In this document: one piece after another, positions 14,241-15,614 of the stretch
How positions within the stretch are numbered: the first letter of the stretch is position 1
Layout: each line of letters begins with the position of its first letter
DNA from: Escherichia coli O127:H6 str. E2348/69
GTDB lineage: Bacteria; Pseudomonadota; Gammaproteobacteria; Enterobacterales; Enterobacteriaceae
Reading direction: 5' to 3' (one strand)
Assembly: GCF_000026545.1 (NCBI RefSeq)
Contig: NC_011601.1
Length of the DNA stretch: 64,000 bases
Notes under the pieces: generated by a model
What the model was told of the DNA's origin: nothing
Databases searched by the model: none
What the model saw: the letters and a program-made list of their open reading frames with translations, nothing else
Program-made: the position numbers and the translations under genes

Positions 14241-14521
14241 AGTAATAATGCCGGTATCAGTTTTTATCATCACTCTGTTTGCTGTTTAACCAGACTGGTG
14301 TGATTACTGATGCAGTGAAGACCTTCCCGCATCCTGACTCACACAGCGATCGACCCTTTGTGTCCTGCCCTGGACCTGTCGGTTGCCGGAAGCGCCTTCA
14401 TGCGAGGCGTCTCCTCACCGATGCGCGTGACTCAAGAAGGGCCTGACGGTTTGTCTCGTTACTGTCCTGTCCGGGTTATCTGTCTGGAGATTCAACTCTG
14501 TTTCCTCACAGGAGCTCTGTT
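14241..14521 (+). ncRNA. Candidate IS110-family bridge (guide) RNA in the left-end non-coding region
   Basis: Inference only: about 280 bp of non-coding sequence 5' of the IS110 recombinase, where the IS110-subgroup bridge RNA is encoded in IS621-like elements; no structure was computed. Confidence 0.35.
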
Positions 14522-15598
14522 ATGGCAGGTAAAGTTACGGAAACCGCTGTTGTGGGTGGCGTGGATACACATAAAGATCTGCACGTTGCCGCTGTCGTAG
14601 ATCAGAACAATAAAGTTCTGGGGACCCAGTTTTTCTCCACAACACGGCAAGGTTACCGGCAGATGCTGGCATGGATGACTTCGTTTGGGGCATTAAAGCG
14701 AATTGGTGTTGAGTGTACAGGCACCTATGGATCAGGTCTGCTTCGCTATTTACAGAATGCCGGGTTAGACGTTCTTGAGGTGACTGCGCCAGATCGGATG
14801 GAGCGACGCAAACGGGGTAAAAGTGACACGATTGATGCTGAATGTGCCGCTCACGCCGCATTCTCCGGAATAAGAACCGTCACACCCAAAACGCGCAATG
14901 GCATGATTGAGTCTCTGCGGGTATTAAAAACTTGCCGAAAAACAGCAATATCAGCCCGCAGAGTCGCTCTCCAGATTATCCATTCCAATATTATCTCTGC
15001 CCCGGATGAATTACGTGAACAGCTCAGAAATATGACGCGCATGCAGCTCATCAGGACTCTGGGATCCTGGCGGCCTGATGCCAGTGAATACCGCAATGTT
15101 ACCAACGTTTATCGTATTTCATTAAAGTCCCTTGCCCGACGCTATCTCGAGTTACATGACGAAATCGCTGATTTGGATGTCATGATTGCGGCAATTGTCG
15201 ATGAGCTGGCGCCTGAACTGATTAAACGTAATGCTATTGGATACGAAAGCGCTTCGCAGTTGCTGATCACGGCAGGAGACAATCCCCAACGATTAAGATC
15301 AGAATCAGGTTTTGCGGCACTGTGTGGTGTCAGCCCTGTTCCCGTATCTTCAGGAAAAACGAATCGTTATCGACTTAACCGGGGTGGAGATCGTGCTGCA
15401 AATAGTGCACTTCACATCATTGCCATCGGACGTTTGCGAACTGACGATAAAACGAAGGAATATGTCGCCAGACGAGTAGCGGAAGGGCATACAAAAATGG
15501 AAGCAATACGCTGCCTGAAGCGCTATATCTCACGCGAAGTTTATACATTACTGCGTAATCAAAACAGGCAGATCAACAGCATCCCGATAACGGCTTGA
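14522..15598 (+). CDS. IS110-family transposase/recombinase (DEDD RuvC-like domain plus C-terminal Tnp domain)
   Basis: 358-aa ORF; N-terminal GVDTHKD...ECTGTYG motif region characteristic of IS110/IS1111 transposases; true start may be slightly internal. Confidence 0.8.
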   Translation: MAGKVTETAVVGGVDTHKDLHVAAVVDQNNKVLGTQFFSTTRQGYRQMLAWMTSFGALKRIGVECTGTYGSGLLRYLQNAGLDVLEVTAPDRMERRKRGKSDTIDAECAAHAAFSGIRTVTPKTRNGMIESLRVLKTCRKTAISARRVALQIIHSNIISAPDELREQLRNMTRMQLIRTLGSWRPDASEYRNVTNVYRISLKSLARRYLELHDEIADLDVMIAAIVDELAPELIKRNAIGYESASQLLITAGDNPQRLRSESGFAALCGVSPVPVSSGKTNRYRLNRGGDRAANSALHIIAIGRLRTDDKTKEYVARRVAEGHTKMEAIRCLKRYISREVYTLLRNQNRQINSIPITA

Positions 15599-15614
15599 CT
15601 CTTAGAAGGGCGTC

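What the first reader, a model, noticed from the sequence alone, without database searches (positions are those of the whole stretch)
14241..15614. IS110-family element nested precisely inside the orfB of an IS3-family element
IS3 OrfB reads normally up to ...LLHSD, is replaced by about 1.37 kb carrying an IS110-type DEDD recombinase, and then resumes exactly at QGWHYRIKSYQSALADKGLVQSMSRKGNC. IS110-family elements insert site-specifically and do not normally create target duplications. An IS110 copy that targets a conserved sequence inside another IS would be IS-on-IS parasitism and would inactivate the host IS.
Basis: partly seen in the sequence, partly recalled or inferred. Interest (0 to 1): 0.6.

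Follow-up and report, generated by a model that had tools for sequence, protein, structure and literature searches.

The report
ISEc21 inserted inside IS1397 transposase gene

Summary
Window 14241..15614 (1374 bp) is ISEc21, an IS110-family element. Its 358-aa recombinase is identical to the published ISEc21 protein. It splits the orfB of an IS3-family element, IS1397 (13129..15931), between ...LLHSD and QGWHY.... Removing those 1374 bp restores IS1397 exactly, with no target duplication. IS1397 itself sits in a REP element between yjbB and pepE, with a 3-bp TAA duplication.

Siddiquee et al. 2024 (PMC11187229) showed by experiment that ISEc21 uses a seekRNA from its upstream non-coding region. 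[quoted passage not shown]

Three points go beyond the finding:
- This insertion is recent. It occurs in 2 of 5426 complete E. coli genomes, both E2348/69 "variety 2" derivatives. Another E2348/69 assembly has the same IS1397 empty.
- IS1397 is an imperfect target, matching 12 of 14 guide positions.
- In 80 relatives across Proteobacteria, both target guides and a downstream donor-loop guide covary with their DNA partners. At least 25 relatives carry a second target-guide module.

Novelty: already known. Interest: low.

The parts
13111..13128 (.). Left half of the REP (palindromic unit) that IS1397 entered, GCCTGATAAGACGCGTAA. The last 3 bp (13126..13128, TAA) are the left copy of the IS1397 target duplication.
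   Evidence: Sequence read directly. The flanks joined with one TAA match the empty yjbB-pepE intergenic site 237/237 in other E. coli, and 5312 of 5426 genomes have it uninterrupted.
13129..14240 (+). IS1397 (IS3 family), left part. It holds the left inverted repeat TGAACTGCACCCCAAA..., orfA (13180..13701), and the 5' part of orfB up to the codon of the second catalytic Asp (GAT, 14238..14240).
   Evidence: Annotated as 'IS3-like element IS1397 family transposase' in matching genomes. NCBIfam transpos_IS3 scores 319.9 bits on the rebuilt OrfB. Pfam HTH_21, rve, rve_2 and rve_3 match. The inverted repeats were read directly.
14232..14240 (+). Left target CACAGTGAT (codons His-Ser-Asp). It matches the left target guide at 8 of 9 positions; the mismatch is at 14237 (-4).
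   Evidence: The published native target is CACAGCGAT|CAGGG.
14241..15614 (+). ISEc21, a complete 1374-bp IS110-family insertion sequence.
   Evidence: 100% identical over 1374 bp to ISEc21 copies of E. coli E2348/69 and others, annotated 'IS110-like element ISEc21 family transposase'. Identical to the LT903847.1 copy used as the published reference.
14244..14249 (+). AATAAT, the -10 half of the promoter that exists only when the two IS ends are joined in a circle.
   Evidence: In-silico circle junction gives TTGACT-17 nt-AATAAT, 10 of 12 matches. No promoter-like site is found at the integrated left junction in any host IS. The junction promoter is reported experimentally in PMC11187229.
14329..14386 (+). 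Target-binding stem-loop of the guide RNA, equivalent to the published minimal 58-nt seekRNA (ISEc21 nt 90-147, window 14330..14387). The outer stem pairs 14329..14334 and 14336..14338 with 14378..14386. The inner stem pairs 14352..14354 with 14362..14364.
   Evidence: RNAalifold on 55 relatives: the outer-stem pairs show many compensatory changes, e.g. columns 4/64 are CG 27, UA 16, UG 8. The seekRNA2 coordinates come from the paper's supplement.
14342..14350 (+). Left target guide CACAGCGAU. It is identical to the top strand of the left target, so it pairs with the bottom strand.
   Evidence: It covaries with the left flank in relatives, e.g. ISMch6 has guide CACTCTGAT and target CACTCGGAC. 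In the permutation test, 0 of 20000 shuffles reached the observed match.
14368..14372 (+). Right target guide CCCUG, complementary to the top strand CAGGG. Here the target is CAAGG, a 4 of 5 match.
   Evidence: It covaries with the right flank in relatives (CCGCG with CGCGG, CCTTG with CAAGG). Permutation p about 0.01 on 13 unique pairs.
14435..14442 (+). Candidate left donor guide AGAAGGGC. It is identical to positions -11..-4 of the right end and is preceded by the same TGACTCA context as the target guide.
   Evidence: Both the guide and the right end are invariant in about 50 relatives, so this is consistent with the reading but not tested by covariation.
14459..14464 (+). Candidate right donor guide UUACUG, complementary to the circle junction C|AGTAA.
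   Evidence: It covaries with the first bases of the left end: AGTAA with TTACT, AGTCA with TGACT (17 loci), AGCAA with TTGCT (L096). Permutation p = 0.001.
14522..15598 (+). ISEc21 recombinase gene, 358 aa, intact. Catalytic candidates are D15, E64, D102, D105 and S277.
   Evidence: Pfam and NCBIfam matches. The protein is identical to the ISEc21 protein in the paper's supplement. A profile of the clade hits the IS621 transposase structure 8wt6 (E=1e-7), with these residues aligned to IS621 D11, E60, D102, D105 and S241.
15595..15600 (+). TTGACT, the -35 half of the circle-junction promoter. It overlaps the stop codon of the recombinase gene.
15615..15931 (+). IS1397, right part. It holds the rest of orfB (QGWHY... 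to the stop at 15899) and the right inverted repeat ...TTTGGGGTTCAGTTCA. The right target CAAGG is at 15615..15619.
15932..15949 (.). Right copy of the TAA duplication (15932..15934) and the right half of the REP, TAAAGCGTTGCATCAGGC.

Best explanation
Window 14241..15614 is an intact, probably active copy of ISEc21, an IS110-family insertion sequence that moves with an RNA-guided DEDD/serine recombinase. A non-coding RNA from the 281-nt region upstream of the recombinase gene carries two short guides on opposite sides of an internal loop. One guide (CACAGCGAU) pairs with the bottom strand left of the insertion point. The other (CCCUG) pairs with the top strand right of it. Together they specify CACAGCGAT|CAGGG, the codons His-Ser-Asp|Gln-Gly around the second catalytic aspartate of IS3-family transposases. 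Here the element entered the 12-of-14 matching site CACAGTGAT|CAAGG of IS1397 and split its orfB, with no duplication. This happened recently, within a laboratory lineage of E. coli E2348/69. A possible source copy at hypF-norW is still in place. The steps shown here are the identity of the element, the exact junctions, the empty site in a sister genome, guide-target covariation and conserved catalytic residues. The steps taken from publication are circle formation, the need for the RNA, and reprogramming. The inferred steps are that this copy came from the hypF-norW copy, that IS1397 is inactivated, and that a second loop (AGAAGGGC ... UUACUG) recognises the joined IS ends as in IS621.
For: Identity: 1374/1374 bp to annotated ISEc21 copies, protein identical to the published ISEc21, Pfam and NCBIfam matches.
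Junctions: 600/600 match to intact IS1397 after in-silico excision; the alignment to the empty locus in NZ_CP059840.2 breaks at 14240|15615.
Recent event: the composite at yjbB-pepE is found in only 2 of 5426 genomes, LT827011.1 and LT903847.1. ISEc21 has 3 places in CP059840.2 and 4 in each LT record. The hypF-norW copy is 100% identical and present in all three.
Same target in other hosts.
Published mechanism: PMC11187229.
Independent support here: left-guide/left-flank match, 0 of 20000 permutations; right-guide/right-flank match, p about 0.01; covarying stem enclosing the guides; donor guide covarying with the left end, p = 0.001; circle-only promoter TTGACT-17-AATAAT; catalytic residues aligned to IS621.
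Against: No transposition was observed here; activity rests on comparing assemblies and on the published assays. The target in IS1397 has two mismatches to the guides (C.A at -4 and at +3), so it is not the optimal site. Only 13 of 5426 genomes carry an IS1397::ISEc21 junction, although 1712 genomes carry the intact IS1397 target stretch. Unlike IS621, donor and target share no core dinucleotide at the crossover (sequence read directly). Single-sequence folding of the non-coding region is not significantly better than shuffles (z = -1.8 to -0.4). The published 58-nt RNA that suffices for movement lacks the proposed donor loop, so that loop may be dispensable or used in another pathway.
Confidence: 0.93

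Rival explanations
1. The identity of the element is the same, but the event ran the other way. The common E2348/69 ancestor already had ISEc21 in this IS1397, and the stock behind NZ_CP059840.2 lost it by precise excision. IS110-family excision restores the target.
For: The empty site in CP059840.2 is perfect, which is what precise excision would leave. Circle formation by ISEc21 is published.
Against: Every other lineage with IS1397 at yjbB-pepE that was listed has it empty, e.g. the many 98.6%-identical records. The occupied state is confined to two closely related records. Recent work reports that IS110 pathways preserve the donor copy (abstract of 10.1101/2025.10.25.684509). A gain is the more parsimonious reading.
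Confidence: 0.12
2. ISEc21 reached this IS1397 copy by RecA-dependent gene conversion from another IS1397 copy that already carried it, not by RNA-guided transposition.
For: The window's IS1397 differs from the CP059840.2 copy at the same locus by 5 substitutions and a 3-bp deletion, clustered at 13647..13910. That could be part of a conversion tract. E2348/69 has several IS1397 copies (5 places).
Against: CP059840.2 is not among the best 10 of the 13 genomes that carry an IS1397::ISEc21 junction, and the three unlisted ones rank below a hit of 95.5% identity. The one ISEc21 copy examined in that strain lies in a different IS3-family element with different flanks, CATAGCGAC|CAGGGAAGCC. The other two copies in that record were not located.
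Confidence: 0.04
3. The nesting is an assembly artefact caused by repeated IS sequences.
For: Both elements are multi-copy repeats. One base next to the junction (14237) differs between the window and LT827011.1, which shows that consensus calling near the junction is not fully reliable.
Against: Two deposited assemblies and the window agree on the structure. The junction lies exactly at the published ISEc21 target. The two elements share no sequence at the junction that could mislead an assembler.
Confidence: 0.01

Closest known systems
ISEc21 (IS110 family), as characterised by Siddiquee, Pong, Hall and Ataide, Nat Commun 2024 (PMC11187229)
   Same: [quoted passage not shown] There is no target duplication. 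The guide RNA lies in the upstream non-coding region, and the published minimal 58-nt seekRNA (nt 90-147) coincides with the covarying stem-loop found here.
   Different: The host IS here is IS1397. The paper's text names ISCfr6, ISEc92 and ISEc93, and IS1397 is not found in its text or its held supplements. The IS1397 site differs from the native target CACAGCGAT|CAGGG at two positions.
IS621 and its bridge RNA (Durrant et al. 2024, PMC11208160; Hiraizumi et al. 2024, PMC11208158; PDB 8wt6)
   Same: Both have the same domain architecture and aligned catalytic residues. The guide RNA lies upstream of the gene. The left and right target guides sit on opposite strands of an internal loop. A second loop further 3' matches the joined IS ends.
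   Different: The relationship is distant: no phmmer hit, and the clade profile gives E=1e-7. IS621 targets REP sequences and needs a CT core shared by donor and target, whereas ISEc21 shows no shared core. The left donor guide matches right-end positions -11..-4 rather than abutting the crossover.
ISMch6, a relative of ISEc21 (Klebsiella michiganensis plasmid, locus L021)
   Same: It has the same ends, the same non-coding architecture and the same D|Q insertion point in an IS3-family gene.
   Different: Its guide is CACTCTGAT rather than CACAGCGAT, and its target is CACTCGGAC, using the other serine codon family. The paper describes this as natural redirection.
[quoted passage not shown]
   Same: These are also DEDD-recombinase insertion sequences whose specific target is a conserved sequence of another mobile element (named).
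   Different: They belong to a different subgroup, with the guide region downstream of the gene and subterminal inverted repeats. Their targets are non-coding ends or attC sites, not a catalytic codon.

Membership tests
IS110 family (IS110 group) of RNA-guided DEDD recombinase insertion sequences | N-terminal RuvC-like DEDD domain and C-terminal Tnp domain in one ORF | tested here: met
   Pfam PF01548 (residues 13-150, E=6e-19) and PF02371 (238-315, E=5e-12). NCBIfam NF033542 scores 197.9 bits against a cut-off of 140.
IS110 family (IS110 group) of RNA-guided DEDD recombinase insertion sequences | Catalytic D, E, D, D and the conserved Ser of the SG motif | tested here: met
   D15, E64, D102, D105 and S277-G278 are invariant in 16 relatives. 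They align with the IS621 catalytic residues in the profile hit to 8wt6. Chain numbering is offset by 2; the IS621 residue numbers are from my own knowledge.
IS110 family (IS110 group) of RNA-guided DEDD recombinase insertion sequences | No target-site duplication on insertion | tested here: met
   In-silico excision of exactly 1374 bp restores IS1397. The junction bases are not redundant.
IS110 family (IS110 group) of RNA-guided DEDD recombinase insertion sequences | Long non-coding region upstream of the recombinase gene (downstream in the IS1111 group) | tested here: met
   There are 281 nt upstream (14241..14521) and 16 nt downstream (15599..15614).
IS110 family (IS110 group) of RNA-guided DEDD recombinase insertion sequences | Guides in the non-coding RNA that match both strands of the target and covary with it | tested here: met
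   Left guide against left flank: 0 of 20000 permutations. Right guide against right flank: p about 0.01. The enclosing stem covaries.
IS110 family (IS110 group) of RNA-guided DEDD recombinase insertion sequences | Circular intermediate whose joined ends create a promoter | not testable with these tools
   Joining the ends in silico gives TTGACT-17-AATAAT. Circle formation itself is published for ISEc21.
IS621-type bridge RNA system | Donor-binding loop whose guides match the joined IS ends | tested here: inconclusive
   UUACUG covaries with the left end (p = 0.001, at least two independent compensatory changes). AGAAGGGC and the right end are both invariant, so that pairing is untested. The published 58-nt RNA works without this region.
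IS621-type bridge RNA system | Core dinucleotide shared by donor and target at the crossover | tested here: not met
   The target is GAT|CAA (native GAT|CAG) and the circle junction is GTC|AGT. No register gives a shared core that reproduces the observed junctions.
ISEc21 (the named element) | Near-identity of DNA and protein to the reference copy | tested here: met
   The DNA is identical to the LT903847.1 copy that the paper synthesised. The protein is identical to the sequence in the paper's supplement.
IS3 family, IS1397 (the host element) | orfA plus orfB in overlapping frames; rve domain with a DD(35)E triad; terminal inverted repeats TG...CA; 3-bp duplication | tested here: met
   NCBIfam transpos_IS3 scores 319.9 bits. 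Pfam rve, rve_2 and rve_3 match the rebuilt OrfB. D121, D181 and E217 have spacings of 60 and 36. Inverted repeats and the TAA duplication. Annotated as IS1397 in RefSeq genomes.

The most novel reading that the evidence does not exclude
The ISEc21 lineage is a Proteobacteria-wide group of RNA-guided elements specialised on one catalytic codon junction of IS3-type transposases. Many members carry two separately programmed left-target guides in one non-coding RNA. One guide fits the AGY serine-codon (or Asn-Thr-Asp) version of the motif and the other fits the TCN version, and natural copies are found in both kinds of site. That would be a multi-guide bridge RNA that widens host range against synonymous variation, which I did not find described in the papers searched. 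ISEc21 itself has lost the first module. In the window this leaves a single-guide element that still entered a two-mismatch site.
Probability: 0.4. Interest if true: 0.55.

Novelty: already known. Interest (0 to 1): 0.2.

Why it matters
For the window itself it matters little. It is a textbook-clean natural example of a published behaviour. The nesting is three levels deep: a REP element holds IS1397, which holds ISEc21. It is useful for annotation, because the two 'IS3 family transposase' pseudogene fragments on either side are one gene split by an insertion.

Three side results have some value for people working on bridge or seek RNAs:
- A natural, recent insertion into a site with two guide mismatches puts a bound on the specificity of the wild-type guide.
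- Comparative evidence suggests that ISEc21 has a downstream donor-type loop as well as the published seekRNA. That helps connect the seekRNA and bridge-RNA descriptions.
- Many relatives have a second target-guide module.

Tried and rejected
- Rfam 15 found nothing in 13000..16100 at E<=1 and no family over the non-coding region in the whole-window scan. No curated model for this RNA exists there.
- phmmer of the recombinase against PDB sequences found nothing even at E<=10. Only a profile of 16 relatives reached IS621.
- My first guide candidates came from exact 6-mers shared with the IS1397 flanks: CAGTGA at 14313..14318 and ACCCTT at 14353..14358. I dropped both. CAGTGA lies outside the minimal seekRNA, ACCCTT is not conserved in close relatives, and the covarying guides are CACAGCGAT and CCCTG.
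- I looked for a shared core di- or tetranucleotide as in IS621. TCAG occurs in both the native target and the circle junction, but one base out of register, so it does not reproduce the observed junctions.
- Hits H92 and H93, which lack the first 140 nt, looked like natural retargeting. They are copies truncated by an IS21-family insertion.
- Single-sequence thermodynamic folds of the non-coding region and its parts were not significantly better than shuffles, so I relied on covariation instead.
- The RNAalifold pairing of GGGC with GUCC in the donor region involves only invariant columns and is uninformative.
- I tried to fetch the original E2348/69 record (NC_011601) to identify the window's source; it is not in the collection.
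- No paper in the library mentions E2348 together with IS1397.
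Full report
**1. What is in the sequence**

An IS3-type orfB is open up to 14240 and ends there with ...EKPLLHSD. The same frame resumes at 15615 with QGWHYRIKSYQSALADKGLVQSMSRKGNC... and runs to a stop at 15899. Between them lie 1374 bp. They hold a 281-nt non-coding stretch, a 358-codon ORF (14522..15598) and 16 nt after the stop.

The ORF matches Pfam DEDD_Tnp_IS110 and Transposase_20. It also matches NCBIfam NF033542, 'IS110 family RNA-guided transposase', well above the curated cut-off.

**2. Exact junctions**

Joining the 300 bp on each side of 14241..15614 gives a 600/600 match to intact elements annotated as IS1397 in many complete E. 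coli genomes.

One E2348/69 assembly (NZ_CP059840.2) has the same yjbB - IS1397 - pepE locus with IS1397 uninterrupted. Its alignment to the window breaks exactly at 14240|15615. The bases at the two junctions are not redundant. The boundaries therefore cannot be moved, and there is neither a target duplication nor a shared core.

**3. The host element**

IS1397 spans 13129..15931. Its inverted repeats are TGAACTGCACCCCAAA... and ...TTTGGGGTTCAGTTCA, and it is flanked by a 3-bp TAA duplication. It lies in the loop of a REP palindrome between yjbB and pepE. The flanks joined with one TAA match the empty site 237/237, and 5312 of 5426 genomes have the site uninterrupted.

The rebuilt OrfB has complete rve, rve_2 and rve_3 domains. 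Its triad is D121, D181 and E217 in the numbering of the fragment used. The insertion falls immediately after the D181 codon. It separates the two aspartates from the glutamate, so IS1397 must be inactive; this is an inference. The nesting is three levels deep: REP, then IS1397, then the IS110-family element.

**4. The insert is ISEc21**

The 1374 bp are 100% identical to elements annotated 'IS110-like element ISEc21 family transposase' in E2348/69 and other strains. In all, 497 of 5426 genomes hold a copy covering at least 80% of the query. The protein is identical to the ISEc21 sequence in the supplement of Siddiquee et al. 2024. The DNA is identical to the LT903847.1 copy that those authors synthesised.

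**5. What is already published**

PMC11187229 makes the following points:
- The element forms a circle with abutted ends, and joining the ends creates a promoter.
- The upstream non-coding region is needed in cis or in trans.
- Insertion makes no duplication.
- A 74-nt seekRNA co-purifies with the recombinase, and nt 90-147 (58 nt) suffice.
- The system was reprogrammed. The native target used was CACAGCGAT|CAGGG.

IS1397 is not named in that paper or its held supplements.

**6. The same junction in other hosts**

Identical or nearly identical ISEc21 copies lie in several other IS3-family elements:
- IS911-like elements: TTCCACAGCGAT|CAGGGAAGCC.
- ISEc52: ...CACAGCGAT|CAAGGCAGTC.
- Two further IS3-family elements: CATAGCGAC|CAGGGAAGCC and CACTGCGAT|CAGGGCAGTC.
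- IS1397-like elements: CACAGTGAT|CAAGG(G/A)TGGC.

The insertion point is always after the Asp codon.

**7. A recent event in a laboratory lineage**

A query spanning the ISEc21 right end, the IS1397 right part and pepE is fully covered in only two of 5426 genomes. These are LT827011.1 ('EPEC E2348/69 variety 2') and LT903847.1 (a construct derived from it). Many other genomes, including CP059840.2, have IS1397 at this locus without ISEc21.

The window is identical to LT827011.1 over 8.7 kb except for one base. ISEc21 has 3 places in CP059840.2 and 4 in each LT record.

A 100% identical copy at hypF-norW is present in all three records. That copy sits in another IS3-family element, which is itself inside an IS1397. 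This pattern fits a copy-preserving move into IS1397, although loss by precise excision in the CP059840.2 stock cannot be excluded.

Gene conversion is unlikely. CP059840.2 is not among the best 10 of the 13 genomes with an IS1397::ISEc21 junction. However, I could not list all copies in that genome.

**8. How the target is read (independent check)**

I collected 80 loci encoding relatives of the recombinase, at 68-99% amino-acid identity, from alpha-, beta- and gammaproteobacteria.

A tblastn search with the rebuilt IS1397 OrfB shows a clear pattern in most loci with enough flank. The left match ends at residue 181 and the right match starts at residue 182. The remaining loci show [H/N/Y]-[S/T]-D | [Q/R]-G-[S/C]-Q-[Y/F] at the junction. 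The whole lineage uses this one codon junction.

The ends are conserved: AGTAA(T/G)AAT... on the left and ...CTTGACaCTTAGAAGGGCGTC on the right.

The non-coding region holds a 9-mer in a fixed context, TGAYYCN-[9 nt]-NGAC. In ISEc21 this is CACAGCGAT at 14342..14350. The 9-mer follows the left flank across relatives. ISMch6 has CACTCTGAT against CACTCGGAC, L047 has CATACCGAC against CATACCGAC, and L046 has CATAGCGAT against CATAGCGAT. None of 20000 permutations reached the observed total match.

A 5-mer, CCCTG at 14368..14372 in ISEc21, follows the right flank. Examples are CCGCG with CGCGG and CCTTG with CAAGG; p is about 0.01 on 13 unique pairs.

RNAalifold on 55 sequences places the two guides on opposite strands of an internal loop. 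The loop is closed by an outer stem with many compensatory changes and by an invariant GAC/GUC inner stem. This stem-loop spans 14329..14386 and coincides with the published minimal seekRNA.

**9. IS1397 is an imperfect target**

Against these guides the IS1397 site matches 8 of 9 positions on the left and 4 of 5 on the right. Both mismatches are C.A, at -4 (14237) and at +3 (15617), and both fall at synonymous third codon positions.

This fits the low occupancy. Only 13 genomes have an IS1397::ISEc21 junction, while 1712 genomes carry the intact IS1397 target stretch. The published tolerance tests, in which 5-6 bases on the left and 3-5 on the right suffice, make such an insertion plausible.

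**10. A probable donor loop**

About 90 nt downstream of the target guide the same context recurs, as TGACTCA-AGAAGGGC at 14428..14442. This 8-mer equals positions -11..-4 of the right end. Both the 8-mer and the right end are invariant in relatives.

Seventeen nucleotides further on, UUACUG (14459..14464) is complementary to the circle junction C|AGTAA. It covaries with the left end: AGTAA with TTACT, AGTCA with TGACT in 17 loci, and AGCAA with TTGCT in L096 (p = 0.001).

[quoted passage not shown] It lies outside nt 8-179, the 'long seekRNA' of the paper, and the 58-nt RNA works without it. Its role is therefore inferred, not shown. A 2025 preprint reports two IS110 pathways, one of which uses a truncated target-loop RNA. 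That could reconcile the two pictures.

Unlike IS621, ISEc21 shows no core shared between donor and target.

**11. Expression**

Joining the ends in silico creates TTGACT-17 nt-AATAAT, a 10 of 12 match. No promoter-like site precedes the gene in the integrated state, in this or in other hosts. The integrated copy is therefore probably silent unless IS1397 transcription reads through; this is an inference.

**12. Relation to solved structures**

A profile of 16 relatives hits the IS621 transposase (8wt6, E=1e-7) and the ISCro4 transposase (9t56). D15, E64, D102, D105 and S277 align with the IS621 catalytic residues.

**13. Verdict**

The element and its IS3-directed, RNA-guided targeting are already known. 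The window adds a clean natural example in a new host IS and a datable recent event. The comparative analysis adds some detail on the guide RNA of the lineage.

Noticed in passing
window 14237: This is the only difference between the window and NZ_LT827011.1 over 8.7 kb: T in the window, C in LT827011.1 (and, from the same 99.5% identity of its left junction, probably in LT903847.1, which was not read). It lies 4 bp left of the ISEc21 junction, exactly at the position that mismatches the left target guide. The empty IS1397 in NZ_CP059840.2 has T. It may be a consensus-polishing error caused by reads from other ISEc21 junctions (the one read in this strain has C there), or it may be a real change. 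It is unresolved.
   Followed up: partly
window 13647..13910: The window's IS1397 differs from the copy at the same locus in NZ_CP059840.2 by 5 substitutions and a 3-bp deletion (at 13733), all within 264 bp around the orfA/orfB overlap. As a result this IS1397 is 1429 bp without its insert, and the CP059840.2 copy is 3 bp longer. It could reflect gene conversion between IS1397 copies or differences between assemblies.
   Followed up: partly
loci L040, L045, L047, L051, L053, L070, L071, L073, L075, L076, L083, L088, L093, L094, L096, L098, L102, L103 and others: At least 25 relatives of ISEc21 carry a second guide-like module about 60 nt upstream of the first, in the same TGAYYCN-[9 nt]-NGAC context. 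Typical 9-mers are CACAGCGAT or AAYACNGAT. Among the 25 loci with both modules, the left flank fits the upstream module better in 11 and the downstream module better in 14 (upstream module: 0 of 20000 permutations; downstream module: p = 0.0115). L070 and L083 have the same two guide 9-mers and closely similar non-coding regions, but sit in AGC-type and TCC-type serine-codon sites respectively. ISEc21 itself lacks this module; a plain hairpin is predicted there.
   Followed up: partly
loci L015 and L016 (GCA_964036875.1) compared with L010 and L011 (GCA_964038665.1): Two ISEc21 copies about 36 kb apart have swapped left and right flanks compared with the same pair in another genome. This points to an inversion by recombination between inverted ISEc21 copies.
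   Followed up: no
loci L007, L008, L009 (hypF-norW region of E2348/69): The nesting here is four levels deep. An IS1397 in the hypF-norW intergenic region is split by another IS3-family element, which is in turn split by an ISEc21 copy identical to the window's.
   Followed up: partly
loci L059, L060, L062 (Pusillimonas and relatives); also L037 and L082: Some relatives are flanked on the left by a right-end-like sequence (...TAGAAGGGGTC) and on the right by a left-end-like sequence (AGTAAAAGAATG...). This suggests head-to-tail tandem copies, or insertion into the joined ends of another copy.
   Followed up: no
locus L003 (NZ_CM144241.1): An ISEc21-like copy lacks its first 140 nt, including the target guide, because an IS21-family element abuts it. 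Its recombinase gene also has an internal stop. It is a dead copy, not a retargeted one.
   Followed up: yes
window 25961..26157 (-), 28052..28200 (-), 3874..3948, 35734..35808, 39963..40037: These are ordinary E. coli features elsewhere in the window: a lysine riboswitch, the sRNA STnc430, and three REP/BIME-type repeats that match naRNA4. There are no tRNA genes and no other IS copies.
   Followed up: no
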